DNA of 64,000 bases from Eledone cirrhosa. Lineage: Eukaryota. A program made the position numbers and the translations under genes. Location: contig OZ024743.1 of the NCBI GenBank assembly GCA_964016885.1, forward strand, positions 290,718,001-290,782,000. The letters are read 5' to 3'. The notes under the pieces were generated by a model. It saw nothing but the letters and a program-made list of their open reading frames with translations. It was not told the DNA's origin and did not search any database. This document shows positions 1-64,000 of the stretch, in pieces. Each line of letters opens with the position of its first letter. Positions within the stretch are counted from its first letter, which is position 1.

Positions 1-3000
1 AATAATAGACACAGCTCGGGAATTTACTGCGCTTATGGCATTTCTGCTGTTCAATACGCTCCGTAGTCTCCGAATGTATTCAGTTCTTAACAATTCCTTC
101 ATTTTTTTGTTCTTTATGCCATCATCCTCCAGAACGCCCAAATACTTGTATCCTTCCTCAGAGTCAATTTCGTTTATCATCTCACCTGTTGGTATCAGGA
201 TTCCGTTACTTCTGCTCAACCTACCCATCCTCATCACAATGACTCCACACTTACTAATACCAAACTGCATACATATATCACTGCTGAAAATACGGACAGT
301 GTCAACAAGCACATCCAACTCCTTCTCACTCTTCCCGAAGAGCTTAAGATCGTCCATGAAGAGGAGGTGATTGATGGTAAGCTCTCCCTTTCCCAACTTG
401 TATCCTGCTCTCACTTTTCGCAGCATAATGGTCAAGGGCATTAGGGCAAGGACAAACAACAGAGGGGACAGGCTATCTCCCTGGAGGATACCTCTCTTGA
501 TCTTCACGCTTCCCAATGATTCTCCAGTTGATGTCAACTCTGTCTCCCAGGACCCCATACTCCTGCCCAGCAACTGTCTGATGTTATCTGCCACCTTGAA
601 GATCTCCAGGCTTTTGGTGATCCAAGAGTGAGGCACCATGTCAAATGCCTTTCTGTAGTCTATCCATCCCATGGCAAGATCAGTGTGTCTCCTCCTGCAA
701 TTCCCCATTACCATCTCATCAATAAGTAACTGGTCCTTTGTACCACGTGACTTCTTTCGGCATCCTTTCTATTCGTCCGGTAACAAGTTGTTTGTGTGGA
801 GGTCATGGTAGATTTCCCCAGACACAATGCTCGTCAACAGTTTCCACATTACGGACAGACATGTTATAGGTCTATAGTTGGTAACATCATTACCCTTGAT
901 TCGGTCTTTCGTTATCAGAACTGTGGTACCTTTTGTCAACCACTCTGGCACCTCACCCGACACCAAGCAGTCATTGAACATGGCCGTCAGTTTCGGGTGG
1001 AGGGATGTTAAATTTTTAATCCAATACCCCTGCAAACCATCTGGGCCTGGTGATTTCCAGTTGGTTAGTTTTTTTGCCTGCCCCTTAAGAGTTTCAACTG
1101 TGATACTCAAATCAGTTTGCTGGTGTGCCTGCTCACCGATCTCCCTCTGTACTGTCTCAATCCACCCTGCCTGGTCATTATGTCTAACATCCTGCTCCCA
1201 TATTCCTCTCCAGAATGTTTTAGTTTGTTCTGCCTCAGGGATCAAGTCGTTGCCTCTTTCTTTCCCCTCAAGCTGTCCAAACAGCATCTTCTGGTTGTTG
1301 TCGAACATGCGGTTCTGTTTATACTGACTGACTCTGTTCTCGTATCGCCTGATTTTTGCACTCTTTGCTACAATGCGTTGCTTCAGTTCCTCTATGATAA
1401 TATTTAGCTTTTTCCTCCTAGTTTTGTACTTTATTTCCAGTCTATTTTTAGTGCCTTTTTTTTTTAGTGTCCCATTCTGTAGTGACTCAAGCTTTCCTAT
1501 GTCATTTCTCATTTCCTTGATTTGACCACTCAGTCGTTTCTTCCACCAAGGCTCTGCTCTTTCTTGTCTGTTGTTTCCTCTCGTTTTTATACCAAGTAGT
1601 TTTCCTCACCGTATTTGCTGTTGCTTTGAAGATATTGTTGCACTGGTGAAGGCTCCTCGCCTCAAGGTATGGGATTACTTTGTTTACCTTAGCTGTTGTT
1701 TCTTTTAACTTTTTCCTGTCTACAAATCTTAGGTTCATAGGTCTCCCATTATCATTGTTCAATTCATCTACCACTAAATTTAGGATGTCAACCGAATCTT
1801 GTCCTAGCCCGTCAGCATTCATCTCCTCAGTGGCCGTATCTCTGTTCCAGGTATTATTTATCTCAGTATTCAGATCATTGTCTGCTTCGGGTGGTTCATC
1901 TGTTCTCTCGACCTCTTCACCTTCATTTCCCACTGGCTCGTTTGTCTGGCATACTACACCCTCCATCTCCAAGCTATTCTCTCTGCTCAGTTCCTTCTGT
2001 TCCAGCTCGCTTATCCACCCATTAGTTCTTATTACCCGAGCCTGCCCGGCCAATGTTTGTTCATCTATTTTAAATAGACCAATCTCGCTCCAGATGTTAT
2101 ACATCCGTCTCCTATAGCCCCTCTCCTTGGGGTTACTTTTCAGGTAACATTGCATAACAGTTCTATTCAATTCTTTCGTCCAGTTGGTTCTGGCCCCTTT
2201 CCTTCTTCTTCCTCCAACACCAGCAGTATTTGGTTGAGAGTCAGGTTCCTGCTGCTTAGCCAGGGAGCACCTGTTGGGCGAGAGTCTGTCACATGACGTT
2301 CTAGTCTCCATTTCACCGTTATTCGAACTGTTTAGGTTCGATATTTAAACACTCTTATCGAGGATTGGCGAATGTATGGTTACATAGCCATCTGTGGATT
2401 CACCGTTTCCGGTGGTTGCGCCGTTCCATTTGGCACTTGTGTGGCATTATCACCACGCTGTAGACGAACACAAATAAACAAACAAACACACAGGCATAAA
2501 AAAGAACCAAAATGAATAGGCATAAGTTTCATTGTAATGTAGTGTTCGAATGTCTGACTTAGTTTTTCCCATCTCTTCTCTGTCCGTCCGCTTGTTTCAC
2601 TCTTCATTCTTATTTTCTTTACGTTTTTTTTTGTTTTTTGTTTTTGTTTTTCTCTGTTTGTTTTTCTCGTTTTTTGCTGTTGTTGCTGTGCTGTTTTGGT
2701 TTTGATGTTTGTTTTTTCTTTTTTCTTTTGAGTCTATCTATATATTTTGATGCCTTCCTCTTTTTTAGTAGGAATTCTATAATGTGGTGGCAGCAACTAG
2801 CAGAAGCAATGGGAGACAGTAGTGGCGGTAGCGATACTGAGACAGCGGTGGTGGTGATGTCGATACCGAGGCAGTGGTGGTGGTGATGTGATCGTATTAC
2901 TGTAGTGATGGTGTTGTAGCGGTGGTAGCAATGAAGGAGTGGTGGCGGCGGTGATGGTGGGATAGTGGTAGTAATGATGGCAGCAGTGATGGTGTTGTTG

Positions 3001-23076: not shown

Positions 23077-23618
23077 GAGGCGTGTTTGCACAATTGCAAT
23101 CGAATCGAATGTTATTATTAATATTCGAAAAACTCAGATTACCTTTATTGTATTCAGCCCAGGTAGAGCGAACATTTTCTCTTATATTTGAATTTGGCAA
23201 AGCCGGCCATTTATCGGTCGTATACAGGAACTGACTGGTCAGTCTGCTGATATGCATATGTAGCTGATCATTGGATCTGCTAATATGCAGATATGACTGA
23301 TCAGCCAGTCTGCTAATATGCAAATCAGACCGATAAGTCACTGTGTATTTTTGAAAATAGAATATATTTTCACTAGCTCTGACAGTTTGGCAGGTGAACT
23401 GTGAGCTGTACTGATGAAGGGTGATGCCCAGAAACGTTAGTGTCTGCAGTTCTGTTTGCATTCCAACACAAGAGCAAGAATGAACGGCTCATTCTACTGA
23501 CACGGATATACAATTGAGGCTTGTTTGCATAATTGCAAACGAATCGAATGTTATTATTGATATTCCAAAAACTCAGATTACATTTATTGTATTCAGCCAT
23601 GTAGAGCGAACATTTTCT
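23077..23618 (+). mobile_element. Non-coding retrozyme-like element, family 1 (1.2-mer of a ~440 bp unit containing an HHR)
   Basis: ~100 bp direct repeats 23077-23180 / 23516-23618; HHR at 23403-23452; second copy at 30212-30713 on the minus strand. Confidence 0.8.
23403..23452 (+). ncRNA. Type I hammerhead ribozyme with intact core
   Basis: Stem I GAGCUGUA/UGCAGUUC; CUGAUGA; stem II GGGU gau GCCC; GAAA; stem III CG uuag UG; cleavage triplet GUC (predicted cut after 23444). Confidence 0.88.
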
Positions 23619-25764: not shown

Positions 25765-28700
25765 CAGGGAGGAGAAACCGAGAGTAATAAAACTTATCAA
25801 TCCAACTAGTGCAGAACTAACACCCAACCTTTTCAACTTACTCTCTAAAGGTCTTAAATTCACACCGACCCCACTACATCCTAACTACTATGAAATGAAG
25901 GAAGACCTCACAGACTTCTGTAGAAAGTTACGACTCAGTGATGAACTATTCGACCAGTACAATGAGGATGAATCATTAGCCATAAATAGAAGCAATTACA
26001 CCCAATCAAAAGGTAGAAATAAAACCCTGGACGAATTCTGTGAACACATCACAAACTTCCCTTACCAACACTTGCACAGACAAAAACACAAGCCAAACGT
26101 CAACAAGAAAGAATGGGAAGAATTAAATAGATTAAAAACCGACAGAACCATTACAATTAAAGAGGCTGATAAAGGGAGTACAGTAGTCCTAATGGAGACA
26201 GAATTCTATATCAACTTAGCGCTCTCCACTTTGGAAAACGAAACATACTACGAAAAGGCTGAACACTACAATCAACAGAAAATTATGAGAAACCTAAAAA
26301 CTCTGATCAACCAATACAAAGAAGGACTCACTAACAAGGAATTCAGCTTCATCACACACTTCACAAGTAAATCCAGCCTTTTATACGGTATCTCTAAAGT
26401 ACATAAAAGCGAATTAATAAGTAAGGCATGCAAGGAAGCCACAGACATAGTCATCAATGTCCCCTCAACCAATGATCTCAAATTAAGACCTATAATAGCA
26501 GGCCCTGCATGCGAAACCCACCGCCTTAGCAACTTCATGTATACCCTTCTCAAGCCTTTTCTCAAACACATCAACAGCTATATAAGAGACGACCTAGATA
26601 TGCTGAATCACCTCCCTAATATGCCCCTTTCTGAACAAACCCTACTAGTGACTTTCGATGTAGTCAACCTATACTCCAACATCTCCCACAACCTAGGAAT
26701 AGAAGCTATCCAATTATGGCTGGATAATTGAACTCCCACAACGCATCAAAAAATAATTCGTGATAGAGGGACTCAAATTTATCTTGGAGAACAATTACTT
26801 CGTTTTCAATAACAAACACTACAGGCAGAAATCTGGTACCGCTATGGGAACGAAAACAGCACCCACTTATGCTAACCTAGTCATGGGATACCTGGAAATC
26901 ACCCTCTACACTAAAGTCCTAAACAAATTTGGAAACACTCTCCACTTATACATAGAAAGGAACTGGAATCGATATCTAGATGACTGCTACATCCTTTGGC
27001 ACGAAAACATCGAGAAACTTAAAGAATTCCACACCCTTATAAATGGGCTCAACACGAATATTAACTTCACGATGGAATACAGCCATCAACAACTCCCCTT
27101 CCTCGACATCCTCATTAAGATCCATAAGAAAAAATAGAAACAGACATATACTACAAGCCCACAGATTCCAAGCAATATCTTCCTTTCAACTCTTGCCACC
27201 CTAGACACGTTAAAATTAATATTCACTACAACTTAGCCAACAGACTCTGTACTATAGTCTCCAATAAAAACACCTGCTACTTACGGCTACAAGAACTAAA
27301 GGACACACTCATAGGCAGGGACTACCCTGCATCACTAATTGACAATGGAATCCAACGTGACCTAAAACTAAGTACCCAGAACCTTAGACACCCTAAAGTA
27401 AATCAACCGAAACTAAAAGCTCTTCCATACATCTCCACACACAACCCCCTCAACAATGAGGCCTTTGAGACCATCCTCCAGAACATCCCTGTGTTGAAAA
27501 AGGACCATAGAATGAACCAAATCCTACGAACACACGATATCATAAAGAGCAAAAGAAATCTAAGTCAATGAAAAACATCCTAACACATGCCAAAGTACTG
27601 CCAACCACAACAACGAAACCCACAGTAAAAAAAAATGCGATAGACCCAACTGTGGCATATGCATCAACCTAATAGAGGGTTCGGAATTATATTTCAAAGA
27701 AGGAAACGTTTTATAGTAAAACACAATTTCACATGCGCATCGGAAAATCTAATATATGTATTAACTTGCTCAGGTTGTCGAGAACAATACATAGGCCAGA
27801 CCAAACACAGCCTCCGCCAACGCATGACTGTCCATAGATCCCAAATTAAAATACGAGGATACAGGAAATTACCACTGAGTGAACACATTGATACCTGTGC
27901 CGCCCAAGAACATCACAACTTCAGAATCTTTCCCCTCTACAAATTTAAAGATAATGCCACCCAGACACAGCGCATCAGCAAGGAATGTTACTTTATTAAT
28001 AAATATGGACCCCGTCTAAACACATCTCCCTAAGACGAACCCACAACATACACACGTACACATACATACCTACATCAGCATACATCTCTATCCACATATA
28101 AACACAATGACATTCGTAAACACACATGTTCTATGGTGCAACACAAATATACACAAATTTGCTTACCTTTTGATGTCTATAGATATAAACGTGCCGACAC
28201 ACATACATACATAAACGCAAACATGCACTGCACACTGATGGGCACATACATATTTGTACACATGTATTCCAATACGGCAAGGCCTAATGGATTCCCCTTG
28301 CAGTACGTATAATCTGGACACTCACACACACCTTGGTATTATGCCAATACTATATATCATTTCACACCTTTTATTATTGAGGTTGTTGATGTTCTATTGA
28401 GAGAATTTTTTTTACTGAAAATATCGAATAATGTACACCATTTTACCAGTATCACAAAAATAAATACTGGTCCACCCACACACACACACACATATATACA
28501 CACACACACATACACACGCGTACATTAACATACAAAGAGACATACACACACACACACACACACACTTCTCCGTATAAGACAAGAGCTGAAAAATATCTTT
28601 TAACATGTTAACATATCCCCCACACACTTACAGACACATTCCTACTGACCATCCCTCTACCACGAATTTCTCTGCTACACACACACAAACACACACACAC

Positions 28701-29200
28701 ACACACACACATACATACACACATATACACACACACACACACACTTGTCTTAATAGGCATTTGAACTGTCATCAGGCTGCGGTTCGCACACACATCCCTG
28801 CTGACCATCATCACCACAACGAACCTCTTTACTACTACTACTACACACACACACACACATATATTTGTTTTGAAAGACTTATTTTTCAGTGACTTCTCAA
28901 TCAGCCGACACAAACCTACATTTGGCGCAAAATCAATTTATAACATTCACATGACCTCTACCGACCAATCAAAATTGTTTTGACCACAAGAATTTTTGCA
29001 ACACGAATTGGCGCGAAACTTATTTTAATACCGCTGGAGCCACTTTTTTCACATAAAAATAGGTATAATTTCCAAAACTAGTCAGATTATAGCAAACATC
29101 ACGGACGCTCTATCTCAAAATTTTTTTTGAAAAGCATTAGAAATGCGCAACCGGTAGAACTTTAAACCAAAACTGAATACTAACCAATTTATTACTAATT
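25765..29200 (+). mobile_element. Penelope-like element, RT plus GIY-YIG endonuclease (frameshifted, 5'-truncated), with 3' UTR
   Basis: LLSKGLKFTP, IKEADKG, LRPII, TFDVVNLYSNI, GTAMGTKTAPTYANL and RYLDD. ORF 27659..28033 contains NLIYVLTC..QYIGQT..LRQR..H..KE..FI..P.LN. Confidence 0.92.
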
Positions 29201-29265
29201 TTCACTTATTCCTAATTAAACTTTTTTCACTGTGAACAATTTGTCAGCATTTTCTTTTCCGTTTA

Positions 29266-29351
<86 letters not shown>

Positions 29352-32310: not shown

Positions 32311-32425
32311 ACTCTCTGATGATGGATGGTACAAGAGTTTAACCTGCATGAAGTGATATATACCCCCCCCCCCACAAACACACACATATACACCCACACA
32401 CACACACACAATCACACACACATAC

Positions 32426-32473
<48 letters not shown>

Positions 32474-32497
32474 GTATATATGTACATATATACATAC

Positions 32498-33280
32498 ATG
32501 AAACCATGGTAGAGGTAATTAAATATGTCTTCTAAGTTTATTTTACACCTAATTGTGTTTAGTTGACTGTATATCTGGTCGATTTCTACATGCTGTAGGT
32601 TATTTTGCTAATTGGGAGAGGAAATGGTATATATTATATCTAGTGATTCTAAAGACATGTTGTATGATATATAGCTCTGATTATTTAATTTATTAATTCT
32701 TCATTGAGCCACAACGTGACCCGTTGCAAAACACATATATATCTATGACTCTATATATATGTAAACCCTTATATGTAATAATCTCCTGTTAGTTTGAGAT
32801 ACAATTTGGGTATTATGGGCTGGGCTTTCTAGCAATAAGCCTACCCGCCGTAAGCAACTAATCTCATCCTTTCTAACTTGACCGCTGCCACGTCACGATT
32901 CTTAGCCATTTTTGAATGTATTCTTGGCGCGATTACTTTGGAAAATTAATTGTCTAATTTTGAGCTCACTCCTGATGAATCCGAAGCTCTGGACATTCCT
33001 GTTATCGGATGTCTTAAAATACGGATGAAACCATGGTAGAGGTAATTAAATATGTACGCATTTCTTTTAAGTTTATTCTACACCTAATCGTGTTTAGTTG
33101 ACTGTATATCTGGTCGATTTCTACATGCTGTCGAAATGTTCGATAAACACTCCATCGTAGCCGTCGCGAAGGGGCTGCTTTCAGTTATTTGTCGGAGATT
33201 CCTGCATAGGAGACTTTATTTTTATAGCTTGGTCTAATTGATTTTTTATATGGTTAATTATGCTAATTGGGAGAGGAATA
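32498..33280 (+). mobile_element. Retrozyme-like element, family 2 (partial tandem, period ~527 bp)
   Basis: 32498-32596 is repeated at 33025-33130, and tgctaattgggagagga recurs; HHR at 32968-33043. Confidence 0.72.
32968..33043 (+). ncRNA. Type I hammerhead ribozyme with a palindromic minimal stem III
   Basis: ACUC-CUGAUGA-AUCCG..(GACAUUC/GGAUGUC)..CGGAU-GAAA-CCAUGG-UA-GAGGU. Confidence 0.8.
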
Positions 33281-33429
33281 CGACGAGTGTGTTTAACTCT
33301 AATGCACTGAAGTATTTTTATCTTATATATATATATATATATATATTTGTGTATAGTGGTAGCTATGGTGCTCCCGTAGGTGGTATGCCAAAATTAGCAC
33401 TCGATATTCATCAGAGTAGAGTGTATATA

Positions 33430-41536: not shown

Positions 41537-41730
41537 TAATAATTGTTTCTACTTTAGGCACAAGGCCAGCAATTACCCAGTACATTACTGGTACTTTATT
41601 TTATCGACCCCGTAAGGATGAAAGGCAAAGTTAACCTCGGCGGGATTTGAACTCAGTCCGTAAAGGGAGGTAACTGTGCTGTAAAGCACGGCGTCCGACG
41701 CTCTACCGATACTGCCAATCCACCGCAGAT
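41537..41730 (-). mobile_element. Full-length tRNA-derived SINE with Meta-like central domain
   Basis: A box TGGCAGTATCGG, B box GAGTTCAAATCC, core gcctttcatccttacggggtcgataaaat, and an (ATT)n tail. Confidence 0.85.
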
Positions 41731-44740: not shown

Positions 44741-46779
44741 GAGTCTCAGTCATTGATGTTATTTAACTGGAATGTTTGTTGAAATGAATATCAAGTCGCT
44801 ACCTGCAGCCTTAGATATTCAGGACGTATCGGAGGGTTCTTGCTGTTCCCAGCAAGCATGCCTTTTGAAGTGTTCCAAAAGAACATGGCTTGACTAATCT
44901 ACTTTAACCGTCCTCGGAAACTCCTTGAGATAGTACCTAGTTCTCCTATGACAATCGGGACAACCTTGATCTAATGGCAGTTCCAAATCCTTTTTAACTC
45001 CCACTTTAAATCCTGGTATCGGTTAATTCTCCTTCAGTACAATTTTAAGCATTGGCTCTGTACTGTCAGACACATGTTTGTGCAGATTCTTTTTCTCCAT
45101 CTGAACACAGTTCTCTATGCTGATAAGACCTCTTCCACCTTCAGATCTCTTTAAGTAGAGTCTATCAACATCACTCCTCTTGTGGAACCTGTTGTAGATA
45201 GTCATTAGCTTCCTAGTCTCCCTAGCCATTTCTTTTTGTTCAGTAACATTCCATTTCAGAATTCCCGCACTGTACCTAATAATAGACACAGCTCGGGTAT
45301 TTACTGTACTTATCACATACCTACTATTTAGTTGTGATTTTAGTATGCCCCTTATTCTCCTTATGTATACAGATCTCATTAATTCCTTCAATGTTTTGTT
45401 CTTGATGTCATCTGCCTCCAGAACACCTAAATATCTGTATCCATCTCCAGTGTCAATTTCCTTTATCATCTCACCTGTTGGTACCAGGATTCCGTTTCTT
45501 CTGCTCAATTTACCCCTCCTCATCACTAGGACTCCACACTTATTAATACCAAATTCTATACATATGTCAGTGCTGAAAATACCGACAGTGTCAACAAATA
45601 CATCCAACTCCTCACTCTTCCCAAAGAGTTTAAGATCGTCCATGAAGAGGAGGTGGTTGATGGTAAGATCTCCTCTTGCCAGCTTGTATCCTGCTCTCAC
45701 TTTTTGCCATATGAGGGACAAGGGTATGAAGGTAAGGACAAACAGCAAAGGGGACAAACTATCTCCCTGGAAGATATCTCTCTTGATCTTCACGTTTCCC
45801 AAGGATTCTCCACCTGATGTTGGCTCTGTTTGCCAGGACTTCATACTTTTACTTAATAGCTGTCTGATTTTTTCTGCCTCCTTGAAGATATCTATTCTAT
45901 TGGTTATCTTTGTACCATGTCGAATGTCTTTTTGTAATCTATCCATCCCATGGCAAGACCAGTATGCCTCCTCTTGCAATTCCTCATTAGCATCTTATCA
46001 ATAACTAACTGGTCTTTTATACCACGGGACTTCTTTCTTTTCGTCCGGTAACAAGTTGTTTATGCGGAAGTAATAGTAGATTTCCTCAGACACAATGCTT
46101 GTTAACAGTTTCTACATTACGGATAGCCATGTGATTGGCCTATAGGTGGTAACCTCATTACCCTTGCTTCAGTATTTCATTACCAGAACTGTTGTACCTT
46201 TTGTTAACCACTCTGGTACTTCACCCGACATGGCTTTGAGTTTTGGGTAGAGGGATGTTATATTTGTTATCCAATAACTTTGCACACCATCTGGGCCTGG
46301 TGATTTCCAGTTGGTTAGTTTTTTGGCCTGCCCTTTAAGAGTTTCAACTGTGATACTCAAATAATATTGTTGGTGTGTTTGTTCACTAATCTCCTTTTGA
46401 ACTGCCTCAATCCATACTACCTGAGTATTAATTTCAACATCCTGCTCCCATATTCCTCTCTAGAATGTCTTAGTCTGTTCCGCCTCAAGGATCACGTCGT
46501 TACCTCTTTATTTCCCTTCAAGCTGTTCAAACAACATCTGTTTTTTGTCAAACACGCGGTTCTGTCTATACTGACTAACTCTGTTCTCATACCGCCTAAT
46601 CTTTGCACATTTTGCTACAATGCGTTGCTTCAGTTCCTCTATGATAACATTTAGCTATTTTCCCTTAGTTTTGTAATTTATTTTCAATCTATCTTTATTG
46701 TCTATGTTCAGTAAAGACTCAAGCTTTCCAATAACTTTTCTCATTTCCATGATTTGACAATTAATTCGTTTCTTCAACC
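44741..46779 (-). mobile_element. R4/Dong LINE, copy B, 5'-truncated with an internal deletion
   Basis: ORF 45023..45979 has [11 protein letters not shown] and [11 protein letters not shown]. The 3' end matches 48925-49215; (TTA)n on both flanks. Confidence 0.88.
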
Positions 46780-47742: not shown

Positions 47743-48920
47743 GCGTGGAGGACTGGGCATGCCATGGCTGATCACTGGTGTTTCATTGACGGTGAACAGG
47801 TGTGGTCGCCGTTCGCCAGGCACGTTTTCCTACAGCTCGTTTCCTTGACGGAACTGCAGTCCTGGGTCAGGAAAAGACCGATGGATAACGCTTGGAAACT
47901 AGAATGTCTCCAGGCGCTCACCGCCCACTGCCAGCTGGGTACCACTATCGGTGGAACATCTACCTCGGTGTTCTATAGAGGACTAGTGGACGGGAAGGGC
48001 TACGACGTACTCAGAGAGATCCTGGGCGTCGAAGAAGATCAGCTGTTCGCTCTCTTCCGGAGAACTTTCAGCCCAGGGCCGATGTATAACTTCCAAAAAT
48101 CCCTTGCCTGGCAGTGTTACCGGGGAGCGTTGCCAGTTCGAAGTTCGAGATAAGCTCTACAGGCACGGAAGTGCCGCCAGCCGAGACTGTCCGATATGCA
48201 CGCAGAGCGACGAAACCATCGTGCACGCATTCATTCAGTGCCCGAGCATTGCTGACTTGTGGAGCTATATCGAACAGTTGGTGCCGCGTGTAGGACTGAT
48301 CCGGTTAACGACTGAGTCCATTGTGCAGATGGTCTCGTCGTCTTCCTTCGAGGATGGAGGGCAGGCAGTTTTCATCTGCTTAGTGGCCATGGCGAAAGAG
48401 ATTGTGTGGTTGACAAGGTTGAAAGGGTTAAAGACAGACACTTTCCTCTTCGGCGAATCCCTAATTAGCTTTTTCAAGTTTCACATGAAGAGAAAAATCA
48501 GGGAGGAGAGGCAAGTGCTGTCGTCTAGCAAGTTTGTTGAAAGGTGGGTGAATGTAGCAAGAATGGTCCGAGTGAACGGGGCCGCTATGAATATACGACT
48601 GCAGTTTGAGAAATGGAAAAATTGAGAGAGGGCGCTTGCCCTCGTGGTCAGAGTGGCCGTGGTCTTCTGTGTGGTTTTCGTCCCGAGTAACCCTCGGATG
48701 TTTCCAACCTATTAGATAATTTTTCATTGTTTCAATTTTCATTTTCATTGTTTATATATATATGTGTCTATGTCTTTTATTTTCATTTCTTTTATATATA
48801 ATAAAAGTCTTTACATGCACAAAACCAACATCGTAAGGTCCAGTACCGTCCTGTGCCGTCTCTAATTTTTTTCTTGATGTCAGCCCTTGTGGCCAATAAA
48901 TAAATTAATATTATTATTAT
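47743..48920 (+). mobile_element. Tx1-like LINE 3' fragment
   Basis: DGEQVWSPF..., CPICTQSDETIVHAFIQCP; 3' UTR ending gcccttgtggccaataaa..(TTA)n. Confidence 0.85.
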
Positions 48921-51900
48921 TGTTCTTTGAGTCTCAGTCATTGTTGTTAGTTAACTGGAAAGTTTGTTGAAATGAATATCAAGCCACTACCTGCAACCTC
49001 AGATATTCAGGACGTATCGGAGGGTTCTTGCTGTTCCCAGCAAGCATGCATTTTGAAGTGTTCCAAAAAGCGGGGTGGGGCCAATTTTCTTTAACCATCC
49101 CTGGAAACATTTTGAGATAGTACCTAGTGCGCCTATGACAATCGGACCACTTTGACTTCATGGCAGTTCCAAATCCTTTTAGCTCCCACTTTAAGTCCTG
49201 GTATCGGTTAATTTTCTCCCTCACCTTCTTACGCACTCTCGTGTCGAATGGGCAGGCGACATCCACAATCAGGCACGATCTTTTTTTCTTGTCCAAAACC
49301 ACCAGGTCAGGTCTATTGTGTTCCAGTTTCTTCACCTGATCGTTTTCTATCACAGACTCTGGATTATGCTCATACCACTTCTCAGAATGTGGTAAATTGT
49401 TTACTTTCCATAGGGGCCAGTGGATCGCCCTGCCCATCACATCATGTCCCTATCCTTTATAGTGAGTCTGGGCTAGGTGTTTACACTCGGATACAATGTG
49501 AGCCACAATCTCCTCTCTCTCTCCACAGATCCTGCACAGTGGGCTAGCCTCCTCCTAGTAAATATGGTATTTCAGCCACTTCGTTTTGAGGGCCTGCTCT
49601 TGCGCAGCCATTAGCATTCCTTTTGTAGCCTGTTTAAGGTCTCCTCTTTTCAACCAGTTCCATATCTGTGGATCTCTGAATTCAGTTTTCTCAAAGAACG
49701 TACTATGAAGGGATTTTTCATGAAGTTTGCTCTTTCTCCTCGTTGTTATTTCCTCCTTGGACATCTCCTGGTCTATTGTCCTCTCCTTCAGTACAATTCT
49801 GAGCATTGGCTCCTTACTATCAGTCACGTATTTGTGTAGGTTGTTTTTCTCCATCTGATCACAGTCCTCTATGCTCATAAGACCTCTTCCACCTTCAGAT
49901 CTCCTTAAGTAAAGTCTATCGACATCACTCCTCTTGTGGAACATGTTGTAGATAGTTAATAGCTTCCTAGTCTTCCTATCCATTTCTTTTTGTTCAGAAA
50001 CATTCCATCTCAGAATTCCCGCACAGTACTTAATAATAGACACAGCTCGGGAATTTACTGCACTTATGGCATTCCTACTGTTCAGGTGTGACTTTAATAC
50101 GCTCCTTACTCTCCTAATGTATTCAGATCTTATCAATTCCTTCATATTTTTGTTCTTGATGTCATCAGCCTCCAGAACACCCAAATACATGTATCCTTCT
50201 TCAGTGTCAATTTCCTTTATCATCTCACCTGTTGATATCTGGATTCCGTTGCTTCTGCTCAATTTACCCCTCTTCATCACAAGGACTCCAGACTTACTGA
50301 TACCAAATTGCATACATATATCATTGCTGAACATACGGACAGTGTCAACAAGCACATCTAACTCCTTCTCACTCTTCCCGAAGAGCTTAATTTCTTCCAC
50401 GAAGAGGAGGTGATTGATGGTAAGCTCTCTCTTTCCCAACATGTATCCTGCTCTCACATTTCGCAGTATAATGGTCAGGATAATCAGTGCAAGGACAAAC
50501 AACAGAGGGGACAGACTATCTTCCTGGAAGATACCTATCTTGATCTTCACGCCTCCCAAGGATTCTCCAGGTGATGTTATCTCTGTTTTCCAGGACTTCA
50601 TACTTTTGCTCAACAACTGTCTGATGTTATCTGCCCCCTTGAAGATCTCTAGGCTTTTGGTGATCCAAGAATGAGGCACCATGTCAAATGCCTTTTTTTA
50701 GTCTATCCATCCCATGGCAAGACCAGTGTGTCTCTTCTTGCAATTGCTCATTACCATCTTATCAATAAGTAACTGGTCCTTTGTACCACGGGTCTTCTTT
50801 CGGCATCCTTATGTTCGTCCGGTAACAAGTTGTTTGTTTTGAGTTGATGGTAGATTTCCTCAGACACAATGCTTGTCAACAGTTTCCACATTACGGACAG
50901 ACATGTGATAGCTCAATAGTTGGAAACATCATTACCCTTGATTCGGTCTTTCATTACGAGAACTGTGGTACCTTGTGTCAACCACTCTGGTACCTCACCT
51001 GACATCAAGCAGTCATTGAACATGGTTGTCAGTTTCGGGTGGAGGGATGTTATCATTTTAATCCAATACATCTGCACACCATCTGGGCCTGGTGATTTCC
51101 AGTTGGTTAGTTTGTTGGCCTGCCCTTTAAGAGTTTCAACTTTGATACTCAAATCAGTTTGTTGGTGTGCCTGTTCACTGATCTCCTGTTGTACTGTCTC
51201 AATCCACACTGCCTGGTTATTATGTTTAAAATCCTGCTCCCATATTCCTCTCCAGAATGTCTTAGTTTGTTCCGCCTCAGGTATCAAGTCGTTCCCTCTT
51301 TCTTTCCCTTCAAGCTGTCCAAACAACATCTTCTGGTTGTTGTCAAACATACGGTTCTGTCTATACTGTCTGACTCTACTCTCGTATCGCCTAATTTTTG
51401 CACTCTTTGCTACAATGCGTTGCTTCAGTTCCTCTATGATAATATTTAGCTTTTTCCTCCTAGTTTTGTACTTTATTGCCAGTCTATTTTAAGTGTCTAT
51501 GTTTTTTAGTGTCCCTTTCAGTAGGGACTTATCATGTCATTTCTCATTTCCAATGAGATTTCCAATGTCATTTCTCATTTCCCTGATTTGACCATTCAGT
51601 CGTTTCTTCCACCAAGGTTCTGATCTTTCTTGTTTGTTGTTTCCTCTCGCTTTTATGCCAAGTAATTTCTTCACCGCATTTGCTGTTGCTTTAAGGATAT
51701 TGTTGCACTGGTGAAGGCTCCTCGCCTCAAGGTATGGGATGACTTTGTTTACCTTAGCTGTTGTTTCTTTTAACTTTTTCCTGTCTACAAATCTTAGGTT
51801 CATAGGTTTCCCACTATCATTGTTCATTTCATCTACCACTAAGTTTAGGATATCAACCAAATCTTGTCGTAGCCCGTCAGCATTCATCTCCTCAATGGCC

Positions 51901-55266: not shown

Positions 55267-58200
55267 ATGGCCGTATTAAGAGTAGGATTTTTAAATGTTC
55301 GAGGCCTGGGATCGTCCTGGAGGCAGGGCCACCTGCTCAACGACCTCAGGTCTATAGAATTGGATGTAATTGCAGTCAGCTAGACCAGGATTTACGACAC
55401 GCGCGCACTAGCCCCCATTTTCGACGACTATCAGATATTTGCGTCTGTTAGCCGGCCGGGAATGGGAGGCGGGGTGGCAGTGCTGTTTAGGAAAGGCCTG
55501 GATCTCGAGGTAAGGTCGATCTTCCGGGACCCGGACGGGAAGTTGGTGGTCCTGGTCGTGAACAATAATGAAGGTGGTGCCTTTAGACTGGTGGCCGTCT
55601 ATGCTCCTACTGGGGCAGGACGGCCGAACTTCTTTAGACGCCTGGAAGCCTTTCTGGGTACGTCTCGCACTTTACTGTTAGCGGGAGACTGGAACGGCAT
55701 CTTAGACGCACGTTGGGACTGTGTGGGAGTATCCGATAGGAGCGGGGGGTGCAAAAGCTTCAAGAATCTGATCAGCCAGTTCCAACTGTCTGACAGGTAC
55801 CGACTAGATTTCCCTAATGCGCTAGTGTGGACCTGGGCTAACCGCATAGGGTCATCTAGATCGTATATAGACAGGATATTCATTGGGAAAATATACAAAA
55901 ATAGTGTAAGCTGTCCACGTTTTGAAACGGTCGCCTATTCAGATCACAAGTTGTGATCTGTATGGTCGACCTAGATAAGACGCGTAGGTTAGGACCTCGT
56001 TACTGGAAGTTAAACATGTAATTTCCGGCACGTAAGGCTTACAGGGACCAGATCAACAATTTTGTTAAGAAAAAGTTAACAGGGGGAGTCGTCAACAATA
56101 GATGGTGGGGGGGCTCTCAAAAGAGAGATTAGAGTAATGTCGATAGAGTTTAGCAAAGGAGTAGCATTAGAGAAAAATATAAAGGAGGGGGAGTTGGTAG
56201 ATAAGTTAGACGAGGCTATTGGTAGTGGCATTGCAACTGATGTGCTAGCGGCGAGAATGGCATTAGACTATTTCCTCAATGCGAAACACAAAGGTTATAT
56301 TGTCAGAGCTAAGGCGCGTGCTCTGAGAAACGAGGGAACCAAAGCTGTTCGATGGGCCCGCATTGCAGAGGCGCAGCGTGGTAATAAAACCACGATTCGG
56401 TCTTTGACGGACCAAGACGGGCACGAGCTGAGCGATTCCAAGAGGATGTGTGAGACCTTTCGCCAACATTTTGCTCGGTTGTTCGGGGGAAGTGGCGGGT
56501 GAGAGATTATGCGGCCTTCAGTCCCTAACTCGATGGCTTGCCGCAACTCTCGACGGCTGACGCTGGGCGCTGCGAAAGGCCAATTACTTCAGCCGAGATT
56601 CAGGATGCCCTTGTTGGCTGCATGAGGCGCAAGTCACCCGGTTTGGATGGTCTGCCCTACGAGCTTTACGCAAATATGCCAGACTTGTTCTCCAATCTCC
56701 TCGAAGCCCTCTACTGCAACTGGCAGCAAAACGGGAGTATTCCCAGTTCTGTGAGCCGGGGCGTAGTGACTCTGATAAGGAAAAATGAGAACAAGAGGGA
56801 CACATTAGACAATTTCAGGCCCATAACTCTGCTCAACAAAGAGTTTAAGATTTTGGCCAGGGTGTTAGCGAAGATGTTGGCGCTTGTCGTCGGGGATTTG
56901 GTTGGGGAGGCGCAAACTTGCGCAATCCCAACCAGGTCCATACACGACAACCTCCACCTAATGCGATACATCATAGATAGGGTAGTGTGTAAACCTGGCT
57001 TCGGTGGGGCTCTGATCAATTTAGATCAATCAAAAGCATTCGATAGTGTCGACCATCGCTACCTGGAGGCTGTCCTCAAGGCGGCTGGCTTCGGCCCCGT
57101 CTTCATAAGCTGGATCGCTGCAATGCACAGCGGCACCTGCTGGATGGTCAAAGTTAATGGCCACCTCTCGGAACCGTTTCAGATCTCCCGATCGTACCGT
57201 CACGGGTGCCCTCTCTCCTCCCTTCTGTACGTATTGACTCTCGAGCCTTTACTGCGGAAGCTGGAGCTGTTGCAGGGCATCCCGCTCGAACCGGGATGCG
57301 GAAAGGCTGTGTCGGCTTATGCGGACGACATCACCGCGATGGTGTCGGACACCTCAGAAATCGAGGTGGTCGGCATCTTATTGGAGGAATATGAAAGGTT
57401 GACGGGAGCAAAACTTAACCCGGAAAAGTCAGTAGGCTTGCAACTCGGCACCTGGAGAGGCAAGTCGTTAGGCGCTGGACGGACGGACCGGTAAAGTTGC
57501 TAGGGGTTTGGTTCGAGCCAGACCTCCAGGTGGATAAGAATTGGGACGAGGTAACGGGCAGGGTAGTCAGTCTCACCCAGAAATGGGCTGGGATGAAGCT
57601 ATCACTGAAAGGTGGGGCGGAGGTGGCGAACGCGTACATCGCGTCCGTCATCTACTACCGTCTGACTGTTGTCCCATGCCCCCATACGCGCCTCGCCATC
57701 TTGGAGCGGCTCCTCTCCAAATTCTTGTGGAGGTGTCAGCTTCCGATATGAGGCGCTCCATCTGCTGCAAGCACCCTCTACGTGAAGGGCTGAGCATGCC
57801 GTGGCTAATAATGCGCAGGCACGCGCTGAGGCTGCGGCATCTCCAGATATTCTGCCTAAACGGTGAACAGGTGTGGTCGCCATTTGTCAGACGGACCTTT
57901 CCGCAGGTCGTTTCTTTGACTGAGTTGCATCCTGGGTCAAGAAGAGACCGAGACTGGGTGACTGACATCTGGAATGTTTCCAGGCACTCACTGCCCTCTA
58001 CCAGGCGGGCAATGCGGTCAGTGGAACTTCCACTCTCGAGTTCTATAGAGGATTAGTGGTGGGAAAGTGCGACGAATCACTCGGAGAGACTCTGGTAGTC
58101 AACGAAGTCGAACTAACCAGTCTGTACCGGAGGACTTTCGAGCCGGGGACGATGGATAATTTCCAAAAAAATCCCTCGCTTGGCAGTGCTACCTAGGGGC

Positions 58201-58966: not shown

Positions 58967-61900
58967 GAATGCTATGGTTGACGGAGGCTCGGCTCTGTAA
59001 GGTATTGTAAATTTTGAACACTATAACAATTGTAAATTGTTTAAAACTTTAACGAACTTGTAGACAAAAACACCCTCCTCCCCGTGAGAGGGGTCTTTCT
59101 GCCCGTTATTTGGCCCTTCGGGGTTAAATAACTGCTTATTGGGGTTTTGTGCCCAATATTTATTTTAAACAAAAAAAACAACATGGCTACGAAAAAGAAA
59201 TTTCATAGGTCACTCCCACTCATTCCGTCTTCTTCTTCCTCAATCATCACTACAGCAGAGAGAAGATTGTCTCTCTCCCTCCCTTCTTTAAATGTGTCTC
59301 TCTCCCTCCCTTCTCTTTCGCAAGCGACGAAAGAAAAGAAAAGTCTCGTGCAAAGCGTGCAAGGTTTCTCCACGACGACGACGACAGCGACGAAACAGGT
59401 GTGCGGGAAATACGAAAACCCAGTTCATTCGTCTGACGTCAGGAATAATAGCAGTAGCAGCCGTAATAACAACAGCAACAGTGACAATGAAAGCAACAGT
59501 AGCAGCCGCAACAGCATCACCAGCAGCATAAACAACAACAGCATTAGCAGCAGCAACGCCAACAACAACCACAGCAACAGCGGCGGAGGCAGTAGTCGTA
59601 GTACCTGCAGCAACAACAAAAGTAACAGCAGCTCTGACGACAACAACAACAACAGCAGCAAAGAAAAACCAATCTCATTTGCAGGTATTGCGAAAAACTT
59701 GGAAACAATCCTCATAACAAATGAGGAATTAGAGGAAGCGAAGAAGATGGTGACAAAGACTGGACACCGAGCAATCTGCAAGGCAGCGGAAACATTTTTC
59801 GAAACCCAACATCACTGTACGGTCACGTACCGTACAGTAAGTACAAAATCCCGTAGGGTGGAAAGAGCCATAGAGGCTCAAATACAAAAAGCCTTGGGGT
59901 CTGTGTGGCAGCGGAAAACGCACATCAACCGAGGAAAATAATATGCCACCGTAGACGTACTTTTTGCCACACCCCAGGAGGCAAAGGCCCAATCCGTAGT
60001 GACCCTAAGGAGCGAGGAAATGGTGTTGGTGCCCTCCTACTGCGGGCAAACAATTGTGAGGGTCAAACTCCCCCCCCCCCCCCGGGATGGCCCCTTCTTG
60101 GCTGGCCGCGTCTGTCCTCGTCGGAATCGAGGACAAAACAACTGTACTGCAAGTACAGAAAAAAGTAAGAGAAGATTGGGTCGGCACCTCCATTGAGATG
60201 CTAATCCAAACCAACCAGGAGTGCATCGAAGCTATCCCGGATGTGATAGACTTCGATAACGGCACTCAACTGCCCATAAGTGTTGAGGGAAAACGCCCGA
60301 AATGCTTTCGCTGTGGATCGAAGACTCACCTCAGGGCCTTCTACAACGAGAAGACCCTGAGAAAGGAGAAAACCCCCCTCCTTCCGAAACCGGCTCCACG
60401 GCTACCAGCAACAGGACAAGCGGCAACCAGGAACGATAGTTCCGTGGCACCCATACCCACGCCACGGAAATCAAAAATAGCAGCAGCAGTGGAAATATTA
60501 ACAACAACAACAGCAATACCGAATGCAGCTGCAACAGAGACTCCAGTGCAAACATCACCAACAACAACAAGTGAAAGAGTGGAGCTGGTACCCCTCCCCG
60601 ACCTCACAGAATCAGACAGGGAGTGTGAGGTGGGAGAGGGATGGCAAAAGGTCGTAAGAAGGCACAAACGCAGAAGCAGCGCATCGTCGCCTTTGAAAAG
60701 GGAGGAAAGAAATGAGAAAATGGTAAAGTCTACTGCAAAGAGACCCACAGCAGCAACACCACCAACACCATCACCACCCACACTAGCACCACCATCACCA
60801 CCGGCGACAACCCCACCGCTAACAACACCTTCAGCACCACCACCACAAGCACCAACATCGCAAACACAACAACAAAACACACACACCCAGCAACAACGAC
60901 AAGAAAATAGCAGAACCACACCCAGAAAAACAAATGCACGGCAATAAATACACACAACAAGAAACTAATGACTTACATAATTGAACACACAGACATTTCA
61001 CAACAGGACTACATAATACCAGCACCAATCAAAACGATAACTAACATAAGACTGCTAAAAATAGCACAGAAACAATACACAAACATTAAAACGAAATTCC
61101 CCAACGCAGTTGGTGATTTCAGGGACCTAGGAGGAACTATCAATCGAAGAGTATATTCAGACATTCTCATAGAAGAGCCGACGACCAGCCGAAGGGACGA
61201 TTCAACGGTACCTTCACCAGACGATCAAGTGAAAAGGGATGTAAAAACCATCCCTCCTCTACCAAAAGTACGGTAAGTGGTCTTTCCCATCTTTTCCACG
61301 CTATTTTAAACATGACCTCACTCAGAATAGGCAGCATAAATGCGCGTGGCTTGGGGTCGTCATGGAAGCAGGGTCACCTGCTCAACGACCTCAGGTCACT
61401 AAACATAGATGTAGTGGCCATCAGCGAGACCAGAATCTCAGAAGCACGGGCCTTCGCACCGATCTTCGGCGGCTACGATGTGTACGCATCTCCCAGCCGT
61501 CCTGGATCGGGGGGAGGAGTTGCTGTGCTTTTTCGGAGAGGTTTGGATCTCGCCATACGGGCCATCTTCCTGGACCCAGAGGGTAAGCTGGTGGTGCTGT
61601 ACGTGACCAGCGGAGACGGGCAAGCTTTCAGGCTAGTGGCCGTCTATCCCCCGACAGCAGCAGGGCGGCCTGATTTCTTCCGGCGTCTGGAGACTTTTCT
61701 TGGAACGTCCCGCTCTTTAGTGTTAGTGGGCGACTGGAACGGGATCTTAGATGCACGCTGGGACCTTGTGGGATTAGCGGATAGGGGTGGAGGGTGCAAG
61801 AGCCTCACCAACCTGCTCAGGCGTTTTTAACTGTCTGACAGGTACCGATTGGATTTCCCGAATGTGCCAATGTGGACTTGGACAAATCGCATAAGGTCAT

Positions 61901-64000
61901 CCAGATCATATATAGATAGAGTATTTTGTAGGGAAATAGATAGGTCTAGCATAGGCTGTCCACAATTCAAGATAGTCAGCTACACGGACCACAAATTCGT
62001 GATCTGTGTGCTTGACTTACATAGGCTTCATAGACGAGGACCCGGCTACTGGAAGCTAAACGCGTCCTTACCAGCGCGCAAGGCCTACAGAGACCGGATT
62101 AGCGAACTAGTTAAGCGGGCGTTGACGGGGGCCATCGTCAACAACAAGTGGTGGTTTGCTCTGAAAAGAGCGATTAGAATAGAATCCATTAGGTTTAGTA
62201 AGGCTTTAGCAATAGAGAAAAATAGAGCAGAGGGAGAACTAGTTAGAAAATTAGACGAGGCGCTTAGCAAAAGCATTGCGACCAACGTACTTGCGGCGAA
62301 ATTGGCCCTTGACCAATTCTTCAATGCAAAGCACGAAGGCTGCGTTGTCAGAGCAAGGGTGCGTGCTCTCAGACACGAGGGGACGAAAGCCGTTCAATGG
62401 GCCCGAGTGGCGGAGGCGCGTCGTGGAAACAAAGCCACGATCCGGTCTTTGGTGGACCACGACGGGCGCATGCTACTCGATCCCGGGAAAATGTGTGAAG
62501 CTTTTCAGCGACACTTCGCTCAGCTGTTCGGGGGCAGCGGTGGGCCGGGTCGAGGGATGGACTTTAGTGTCTACCTCGACGGACTGCCGCGGCTCTCGGC
62601 CACTGAGGCGAAGTGTTGCGAAAAGCCGATAACAGCCGCTGAAGTAAGGGAGGCAATGACTGGCTGCACAAGGGGTAAATCGCCTGGTTTGGATGGTCTG
62701 CCCTATGAACTTTACGTACAGATGCCAGACTTGTTCGGAGGCCTCTTGGCGGACGTCTACTGCAACTGGCAACAGAACGGGAGAATTCCCAGTTCTGTGA
62801 GCCGAGGAGCGGTGGCACTGCTGAGAAAGGATCCGAACAAGGGGGATAACATAGATAATTTCCGGCCCATAACTCTGCTAAACACAGTGTTCAAGATTTT
62901 GGCCAAGGTGCTAGCAAAGAGGTTGGCGCTTGTCGTTGGTGGTCTGGTGGGAGAGGCGCAGACATGCGCCATTCCCGACAGATCCATCCACGACAACCTC
63001 CACCTCATGCGATACATCGTAGAGAGGGTAGCTAGGGAACCTGGCACGGGTGGGTCCTTGATCAATTTAGATCAGTCGAAAGCTTTCGATAGGGTCGACC
63101 ATCGTTACCTAGCGGCAGTCCTGAGGGCGTCTGGCTTTGGGCCCGTCTTCAGAGGCTGGATCGCTGCCATGCACAGCGACATCTGCTCTGTGGTGAGAGT
63201 GAACGGTCACCTGTCGGAACCGTTCAACATCATGCGCTCGGTCCGCCAAGGATGTCCCCTCTCGTCCCTCTTGTACGTATTGACTCTCGAGCCATTACTG
63301 CACAAACTGGAGACGTTGAAGGGCGTCCCGCGCGAACTAGGATGCGGAAGATCCGTGTCAGCATATGCGGACGATGTCGCCGTAGTGGTGTCGAACGCCA
63401 AACACATCGAGGCGATCGGCACTACACTAAGAGAATACGAAGCGGTGACAGTAGCAATGATCAACCACGAAAAGTCAGTGGGCCTTAGCTCGGCACCTGC
63501 AGAGGCAGGACCCTGCCATCCAACAGCGTCGTCGGACGCTGGACCGACGGACGGGTTAAATTGCTAGGGGTCTGGTTCGGTCCGGACCTCCAGACGGACA
63601 AAAACTGGGACGAAGTGACGAGCAGGGTGGCTTCTCTCACCCAGAAATGGGCGGAGAGGAAGCTATCTCTGAAAGGTCGAGCGGAGGTGGCTAACGCGTA
63701 CATCGCGTCTGTCATCTGCTACCGCCTGACCGTGGTACCTTGTCCTAAGCCTCGCCTGACTGCGCTGGAGTGTTTGCTCTTTCGCTTTATGTGGAAGGGA
63801 CGCGCTCCGATGGTCAGGCGGTCCATCTGTTGTCAACACCCGCTACGTGGAGGGCTGGGCTTGCCGTGGCTGATGATGCGCAGGCACGCGCTCAGGCTAC
63901 GACATCTCCACCTCTTCCTCGACGGAGATCAGGTGTGGTCACCGTTTGCTAGACACGTATTTCCCCAGCTCGTTTCCTTGACGGAGCTGCAGTCCTGGTT
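58967..64000 (+). mobile_element. Second Tx1/L1-clade LINE (different subfamily), running off the window end
   Basis: ORF1 59183-61276 (ISFAGIAK, EGKRPKCFRCGSKTH). ORF2 from 61312 (INARG, SET, GDWN, TDH; RT VRQGCPLS, AYADD). Confidence 0.92.
61312..64000 (+). pseudogene. Tx1 ORF2 (APE plus RT); stop at ~61828 and frameshift at ~63485
   Basis: ORFs 61312..61830 and 61849..63567 are in frame across a single TAA. Confidence 0.88.

What the first reader, a model, noticed from the sequence alone, without database searches (positions are those of the whole stretch)
32498..33280. Family 2: ~527-bp partial tandem with a CCAUGG-palindrome hammerhead
Seen: an intact CUGAUGA/GAAA core, 5-bp stem II with a nested 7-bp helix, and stem III reduced to the palindrome CCAUGG. 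The upstream repeat begins inside the ribozyme (atGAAACCATGGTA at 32498), directly after a microsatellite. Inference: a dimer-dependent ribozyme in a retrozyme-like unit. Stem I is short, so activity is uncertain.
Basis: partly seen in the sequence, partly recalled or inferred. Interest (0 to 1): 0.7.

Follow-up and report, generated by a model that had tools for sequence, protein, structure and literature searches.

The report
Penelope-mobilised hammerhead retrozyme, damaged copy
This is a damaged copy of a 656-base non-coding repeat, present thousands of times in this animal genome, that carries a hammerhead ribozyme motif and is likely pasted into TA microsatellites by the enzymes of Penelope-type retrotransposons, a known kind of element.

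Summary
The hammerhead motif is real (32969-33041; 1,571 exact pattern matches genome-wide versus 0 control), with helix III reduced to the palindrome ACCAUGGU. The family unit is about 656 bp, not 527: the upstream copy lost 8 + 120 bp. The start inside the ribozyme is an ordinary 5' truncation (1 of 137 sampled 5' ends lies at the cleavage site). Stem I is 5-6 bp and covaries in most subfamilies; the window's has 3 bp. The last 47 nt come from a second hammerhead family (junction unique in the genome). The unit is non-coding and leaves the Penelope-like-element (PLE) footprint: (TA)n targets, partial tandems, head-to-head arms, and two fixed 3' ends about 100 nt apart, used one per arm (43 of 45). 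Verdict: a non-autonomous PLE / non-LTR retrozyme, a new member of a known kind. No autonomous partner was found. Cleavage, dimerisation and circular RNA are untested. This locus has one catalytic core, so it likely cannot release a monomer by itself.

The parts
32365..32497 (.). (C)n(CA)n(TA)n(TATG)n microsatellite, 5' flank and likely insertion target
   Evidence: sequence; TRF rows 32373-32426 and 32422-32496
32498..32673 (+). Upstream 5'-truncated partial copy (unit positions 352-656) with an 8-nt and a 120-nt internal loss; pseudo-LTR-like partial tandem
   Evidence: alignment to natural copy L002; BLAST segments 352-459 and 580-656
32500..32514 (+). 3' half of an upstream hammerhead (GAAA, palindrome, GUA site after 32511, GAG); no CUGAUGA core
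   Evidence: sequence; exact repeat D12
32660..32673 (+). Fixed family 3' end E1 (unit position 656), here run through into the next unit
   Evidence: 3' ends of 30 loci; end classes
32674..33278 (+). Near-complete non-coding unit (positions 1-606 of 656); last 50 nt missing
   Evidence: longest stop-free frame on a doubled natural unit is 65 codons
32764..32777 (+). Second fixed family 3' end E2 (about 100-nt optional tail beyond E1)
   Evidence: tail ends into (TA)n in direct and inverted arms; end classes
32969..33041 (+). Type I hammerhead motif: stem I 3 bp, CUGAUGA, stem II 5 bp with nested helix, GAAA, ACCAUGGU helix III, predicted cleavage after A33038
   Evidence: 1,571 pattern matches versus 0 control
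33277..33323 (+). 3' terminal piece of a different hammerhead-bearing repeat (family B), joined through a 2-nt AA microhomology
   Evidence: 567 candidates, 39 other scored hits all match query 23/24-79/81 only; B's own hammerhead; junction pattern has 1 match in the genome
33324..33345 (.). (TA)n tract at the 3' end
   Evidence: sequence

Best explanation
The window holds one damaged insertion of a 656-bp non-coding repeat with a type I hammerhead motif, a family likely copied into (TA)n microsatellites in trans by the reverse transcriptase and GIY-YIG endonuclease of an autonomous Penelope-like element. Shown: copy number, unit length, no ORF, TA targets, partial tandems, head-to-head arms, two fixed 3' ends used one per arm, and scattered 5' ends. 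Inferred: the PLE protein nicks TA-rich DNA and starts reverse transcription internally on a more-than-unit-length or circular RNA at E1 or E2. Copying runs past the unit boundary and stops at random, which here happened inside the ribozyme. When both DNA strands are primed, one arm starts at each site. The hammerhead would trim or circularise the RNA, most efficiently as a dimer through ACCAUGGU, but its cut does not set the insertion ends. At this locus the upstream copy later lost 128 bp and the 3' end was replaced by a family-B end (template jump, or a later insertion with deletion). The upstream remnant keeps only the substrate half of a double hammerhead, so the single downstream core could cut it, while the downstream site would need the weak monomer fold or another molecule.
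For: 4,095 first-look candidates, best copies 92-95% identical. 1,571 intact-core and 3,252 3'-motif exact matches versus 0 controls. Unit 656 bp, longest frame 65 codons. Of 82 distinct insertions from 150 loci: 53 head-to-head, 28 one-direction, 1 complex. Of the 45 head-to-head with both ends at fixed sites, 43 are E1+E2, 2 are E1+E1 (both with an E2 tail split by a later SINE-like insertion) and 0 are E2+E2; about half mixed expected, P about 3e-11 if independent. 5' ends: 1 of 137 within unit 360-372, 2.7 expected if uniform. Arms of one insertion average 97.1% identity (n=22) versus 91.9% between insertions. A roughly 30-kb array has the same two ends in (TA)n. The same features define PLE insertions (PMC8557442 passages; PMC3846280 passages). 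A purified PLE protein cuts and extends both strands at AT-rich DNA, starts internally at two sites that mark the tail, and does not need hammerhead cleavage (PMC11167929). Autonomous RT+GIY-YIG PLEs are abundant here: 16,769 candidates, 784-codon open frames. Structure: 90.7% of cells paired, 34 double-change cells versus 14.4 shuffled, 0 of 500 shuffles.
Against: No autonomous partner was found. After masking, A matches 1 of 68 PLE-bearing loci, and that copy (L220) follows a PLE 3' end across a TA run. No PLE ORF lies in register upstream in 30 position-ordered intact-core loci, 30 position-ordered 3'-motif loci or 27 one-direction insertions. The tail is about 100 nt against the published 30-40. 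The arm's own partner was its best match in only 11 of 22 cases. Some of the 82 insertions are not independent (L184/L187, L194/L195), and a filter hid short E2 arms in at least L024 and L207. In some searches the pattern fixed helix III and the first three 3' bases of stem I in 25 of 30 rows (the window row carries the same letters), so their invariance there is by construction; stem II was off by one column in 9 rows. The window's stem I is among the weakest (3 bp, 7 of 30 rows). 8 of 9 Xenopus retrozyme dimers tested in 10.64898/2026.07.22.740005 did not cleave. Only 6 of 82 insertions carry two complete same-direction hammerheads (arrays cut by the locus edge were dropped).
Confidence: 0.85

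Rival explanations
1. The unit is simply the pseudo-LTR of an autonomous Penelope-like element whose coding copies are rare, and the window holds a truncated end of it.
For: PLE pseudo-LTRs carry such hammerheads and most copies are 5'-truncated (PMC4209133). Only samples of the genome's PLE families were examined.
Against: Sequence runs from the unit's 3' end straight into the next unit with no ORF between, in many independent insertions and in a roughly 30-kb array. No ORF-linked copy.
Confidence: 0.08
3. A local tandem duplication or satellite with a chance hammerhead-like motif.
For: No Rfam match; whole-motif folding z only -1.0; the long array shows repeated variant patterns that suggest later local amplification.
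Against: 1,571 versus 0 pattern matches on many chromosomes, compensatory changes in stems I and II, fixed ends.
Confidence: 0.01

Closest known systems
Animal non-LTR retrozymes (Cervera & de la Pena 2020, PMC7229834; Li, Clavereau & Pollet 2026, 10.64898/2026.07.22.740005)
   Same: Non-coding head-to-tail units with one type I hammerhead each; monomers, dimers and long arrays; weak palindromic helix III as in axolotl HHR_Amex1; co-occurs with autonomous PLEs; 656 bp is within the 51-972 bp range of the 2026 preprint.
   Different: Longer than the 150-450 bp of the 2020 paper; loop II is replaced by an internal loop plus nested helix, so canonical loop I-II contacts are not evident; circular RNA not shown; no homologous autonomous pseudo-LTR found; head-to-head arms with two fixed ends are not described in the parts of those papers that I read.
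Penelope-like elements with pseudo-LTR, inverted copy and tail (PMC3846280; PMC8557442; PAc mechanism in PMC11167929)
   Same: 5' truncation, partial tandems, adjacent inverted 5'-truncated copy, tail on one end only, (TA)n bias, hammerhead upstream of an internal 3' end.
   Different: No RT or GIY-YIG ORF; tail about 100 nt rather than 30-40.
PLE hammerhead variants with small palindromic helix III (Drosophila virilis type; PMC4209133)
   Same: Type I topology, short helix I, small palindromic helix III, proposed dimer activity.
   Different: 48-nt helix II domain with a nested helix; helix I is 5-6 bp in most subfamilies.
Non-autonomous Chlamys PLEs such as MRC1 (PMC8557442 passage)
   Same: Non-coding PLE derivatives that form pseudo-LTRs and head-to-tail multimers.
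   Different: Those generally resemble an autonomous family at the 3' end, and most Chlamys lack hammerheads; here a hammerhead is present and no partner was found.

Membership tests
Type I hammerhead ribozyme | CUGANGA and GAAA core with NUH triplet in type I order | tested here: met
   59 of 66 distinct BLAST-collected family-A regions fit the core expression, 54 of these with CCATGGTA
Type I hammerhead ribozyme | Three helices supported by covariation | tested here: met
   helix I 3 of 5 and helix II 3 of 5 pairs with changes on both sides; helix III invariant, partly by selection
Type I hammerhead ribozyme | Match to an Rfam hammerhead model | tested here: not met
   the long helix II insert is a likely reason (inference)
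Type I hammerhead ribozyme | Self-cleavage, as monomer or dimer | not testable with these tools
   only energies computed: duplex -11.2 versus hairpin +2.9 kcal/mol
Non-LTR retrozyme | Tandem non-coding units each with a complete type I hammerhead (family level) | tested here: met
   L021/L089 three units; C1 array of about 30 kb; longest frame 65 codons
Non-LTR retrozyme | Two consecutive complete hammerheads at this locus (the 2026 preprint's criterion for an active copy) | tested here: not met
   upstream copy starts at unit 352 and lacks CUGAUGA
Non-LTR retrozyme | Expressed as monomeric linear and circular RNA | not testable with these tools
   no run on record as RNA was listed
Non-LTR retrozyme | Target-site duplication longer than 4 bp when present | tested here: inconclusive
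   flanks are microsatellites
Non-LTR retrozyme | Absence of PBS and PPT motifs | not tested
   no dedicated test made
Autonomous Penelope-like element | ORF with RT and GIY-YIG endonuclease | tested here: not met
PLE-mobilised non-autonomous element | Partial tandem, inverted 5'-truncated copy, (TA)n targeting | tested here: met
PLE-mobilised non-autonomous element | Optional tail on one end only | tested here: met
   43 of 45 head-to-head insertions E1+E2; tail about 100 nt rather than 30-40
PLE-mobilised non-autonomous element | Shared terminal sequence with an autonomous PLE | tested here: inconclusive
   none among 68 PLE-bearing loci apart from one nested copy; the sample covers only some PLE families

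The most novel reading that the evidence does not exclude
The ACCAUGGU palindrome is an RNA dimerisation signal as well as a ribozyme helix: it pairs two transcripts so that a PLE protein dimer primes both DNA strands, one RNA at each start site, which would explain the near-strict E1+E2 head-to-head insertions. The sister family whose helix III can close as a 4-bp monomer hairpin makes few such insertions (2 of 23, or 4 of 23 counting any inverted piece, versus 19 of 27). Against: only two families are compared, their E2 sites also differ, and Naiad PLEs lack canonical hammerheads yet make inverted insertions (PMC8557442).
Probability: 0.08. Interest if true: 0.7.

Novelty: new member of a known kind. 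Interest (0 to 1): 0.33.

Why it matters
The element class is known and this copy is damaged, so the locus itself is ordinary. The family is a large natural data set on how PLE enzymes copy non-coding hammerhead repeats. Thousands of insertions with two fixed start sites, used one per arm, give genomic support for two-strand priming, which has been shown in vitro for one PLE (PMC11167929). The ends also show that the ribozyme cut does not define what is inserted. It extends the retrozyme-PLE link proposed for vertebrates to what looks like a cephalopod-type genome (organism group is my recall from genome size and repeat content, not tested). Sister families with a perfect-palindrome versus a monomer-competent helix III offer a ready pair for a dimer-cleavage test.

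Tried and rejected
Rfam: nothing at gathering over the window; only microsatellite-driven or weak hits at E<=10. Coding potential of the unit: rejected. The degraded PLE at window 25780-29270 as the parent: no sequence shared with the unit after masking. PLE ORFs beside copies L137, L243, L251, L303, L045 and L220 are separate elements abutting at TA runs or in the opposite orientation. 527 bp as a family unit: the 352-459/580-656 structure was seen only at the window's own locus among 82 insertions. Start at the ribozyme as a cleavage-defined end: rejected. Expression: no RNA holder listed, which is no evidence either way; three runs of unrecorded kind, one sample, laid as contigs only confirmed a 655-nt repeat joint. 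A splice-donor-like sequence right after the cut site was noticed, but it is absent from several subfamilies and was not pursued. Literature: 'octopus' + 'hammerhead ribozyme' gave 5 papers, 4 listed; 'cephalopod, Penelope, non-autonomous, genome' gave 5; no title names this family, and apart from PMC8557442 I saw these only as listings; Repbase and Dfam were not searchable, so the family may be catalogued there. Earlier scan notes: none for this genome or sequence.

Full report
1. Observation. The motif is present as described: stem I 5' strand CTC 32969-32971, CTGATGA 32972-32978, stem II ATCCG/CGGAT closing a 48-nt domain with a nested 7-8 bp helix, GAAA 33027-33030, ACCATGGT, cleavage triplet GUA ending at 33038, GAG 33039-33041. 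The helix II domain folds better than shuffles (z -3.0, 2 of 200), the whole motif does not (z -1.0). A 31-nt exact repeat at 32498 and 33025 gives the 527-nt spacing. Rfam finds no hammerhead. The pattern CTGANGA-N46..50-GAAACCATGGTAGAG has 817+754 matches in the 3.0-Gb genome versus 0+0 for the reversed control.

2. The family. A search with 32760-33300 gave 4,095 first-look candidates; the best of the 40 scored are 92-95% identical and nearly all stop matching at about window 33278. A natural unit cut from L021 is 656 bp, and its longest stop-free frame on a doubled unit is 65 codons. A 22-nt motif near the 3' end has 3,252 exact matches versus 0 control; this count includes a sister family C (679 bp, 517 of 650 aligned positions identical; 4,791 candidates). 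Subfamilies 75-94% alike to the reference unit share the hammerhead.

3. The window copy. Unit positions 352-656 (32498-32673, with an 8-nt and a 120-nt loss) are followed by positions 1-606 (32674-33278); 655 minus 128 gives 527. The unit's last 50 nt are replaced by 47 nt that match the 3' end of another family, B (567 candidates; the 39 other scored hits match only this part), which has its own hammerhead. The two share an AA at the junction, and the junction pattern occurs once in the genome. A template jump during reverse transcription and a later B insertion with a small deletion fit equally well.

4. Ribozyme conservation. In 30 aligned motifs (window, 25 position-ordered pattern hits, 4 family C), contiguous stem I is 5-6 bp in 22, 4 bp in 1 and 3 bp in 7, the window among these. 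For the named structure 90.7% of cells pair and 34 cells change on both sides versus 14.4 shuffled (0 of 500); slid controls pair 29-43%. The innermost stem II pair is A-U in 7 and G-C in 10 rows, and its third pair is C-G in 23 and U-A in the 4 family C rows. Caveats: relatedness inflates these counts, the pattern fixed helix III and GAG in 25 rows, and 9 rows were off by one column in stem II. Of 66 distinct family-A regions collected by BLAST, 59 fit the core expression and 54 of these have CCATGGTA. Two ACCAUGGU strands pair at -11.2 kcal/mol, the monomer hairpin costs +2.9. Family C mostly has ACCCUAAGGGU, which can close 4 bp as a monomer.

5. Insertion anatomy. Copies end at one of two fixed sites, both running into (TA)n: E1 (unit 656) and E2 (about 100 nt into the next unit). 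150 loci collapsed to 82 insertions not cut by a locus edge: 53 head-to-head, 28 one-direction (19 E1, 4 E2, 5 other, the window among these), 1 complex. Among the 45 head-to-head insertions with both ends at fixed sites, 43 are E1+E2, 2 E1+E1 and 0 E2+E2 (P about 3e-11 under independent ends); both E1+E1 cases have an E2 tail split by a later insertion. A few insertions are duplicates, and short E2 arms were filtered out in at least two cases. The 137 5' ends are spread along the unit, 1 within 360-372 (cut after 365) against 2.7 expected; many abut TA runs. Arms of one insertion are 97.1% alike (n=22) versus 91.9% between insertions, but the own arm is the best match in only 11 of 22. An array on C1 from about 92.986 to 93.016 Mb has an inverted E2 arm at one end and E1 at the other, both in (TA)n (I fetched its two ends, not the middle). 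Family C is mostly one-directional (2 of 23 head-to-head versus 19 of 27 with an inverted piece in A).

6. Helper. RT+GIY-YIG PLEs abound: a degraded copy at window 25780-29270 (Pfam GIY-YIG over cut-off, RVT_1 below cut-off) has 16,769 candidates, some with 784-codon open frames, and other families exist. None shares sequence with the unit: 1 of 68 PLE-bearing loci matches, a copy that follows a PLE 3' end across (TA)6. No PLE ORF lies in register upstream (30 loci; 30 loci) or 66 (27 insertions). The helper is therefore inferred, not identified.

7. Mechanism (inferred). PLE insertions show 5' truncation, partial tandems, an adjacent inverted copy, a tail on one end and microsatellite bias (PMC8557442, passages; PMC3846280, passages). 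A purified PLE protein nicks and extends both strands of AT-rich DNA, starts internally at two sites that bound the tail, and does not need hammerhead cleavage; its hammerhead cut only with protein present (PMC11167929, parts 1-2 of 4). The family fits this point for point without an ORF. Palindromic helix III and dimer cleavage are described for PLE hammerheads (PMC4209133, parts 1-2 of 4) and axolotl retrozymes (PMC7229834, parts 2-3 of 6). A 2026 preprint argues that animal retrozymes are non-autonomous PLE derivatives and found cleavage in 1 of 9 dimers tested (10.64898/2026.07.22.740005, parts 1-3 of 5; its supplements are closed and may list related families). By double-hammerhead topology (my reasoning from the model cited in PMC4209133), the upstream remnant supplies only a substrate strand, so this locus has two sites but one core and is unlikely to release a monomer by itself.

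8. Earlier scan notes (unchecked AI notes, other genomes) describe the same two-fixed-end, head-to-head pattern. I had seen the two ends before that look-up; the notes prompted the tally. They show the pattern recurs in this scan and lower its surprise; they are not counted as support.

9. Verdict. Observation confirmed, interpretation partly supported. New member of a known kind (non-LTR retrozyme / non-autonomous PLE); interest 0.33. Activity, dimer dependence, circular RNA and the helper's identity are open.

Noticed in passing
window 25780-29270 (+); motif at 29121-29162: Degraded RT+GIY-YIG PLE of a very abundant, young family (16,769 candidates; intact 784-codon frames elsewhere). Its 3' region carries an atypical hammerhead-like motif: UUGAAAA core (U3-A8 variant), GCAA in place of GAAA, CCGG palindrome. 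Related PLE families keep GAAA.
   Followed up: partly
L091:1072-1672 (-), L128-L151: Sister family C, 679 bp, about 80% identical, same 3' end, helix III ACCCUAAGGGU, rarely head-to-head.
   Followed up: yes
window 33277-33323; L032-L050: Family B, another hammerhead-bearing repeat ending in (TA)n with inverted arms; no in-register ORF seen upstream in the loci examined, unit not defined.
   Followed up: partly
L016:2095-2279, L201:2240-2424, L193:1597-1781: The same roughly 186-bp SINE-like repeat (88-95% alike) has inserted three times near unit position 10-24, in two cases with a duplication of about 17 bp; it also has several copies in the window, e.g. 41543-41726.
   Followed up: partly
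G000:C1 about 92,985,600-93,016,000 (L272, L273): Array of about 30 kb of the 656-bp unit with the two family ends in (TA)n; alternating stem II variants suggest later local amplification.
   Followed up: partly
L220:2750-3267: A family-A copy begins at an internal TA run directly after the 3' end of the abundant autonomous PLE, across (TA)6: nested insertion or a template jump that would hint at the helper.
   Followed up: no
window 23400-23460 (+): Minimal hammerhead-like motif CTGATGA-stem-GAAACGTTAG, probably another family.
   Followed up: no
G000:C12 17.02-17.49 Mb: Family A and C copies recur at about 60-kb spacing, a segmental duplication; treated as one insertion each.
   Followed up: partly
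window 1-768, 45026-45994, 47987-50697, 55384-57491, 61117-63564: LINE-type RT and endonuclease fragments; no host-gene Pfam family of note among 60 of 131 long frames scanned.
   Followed up: no
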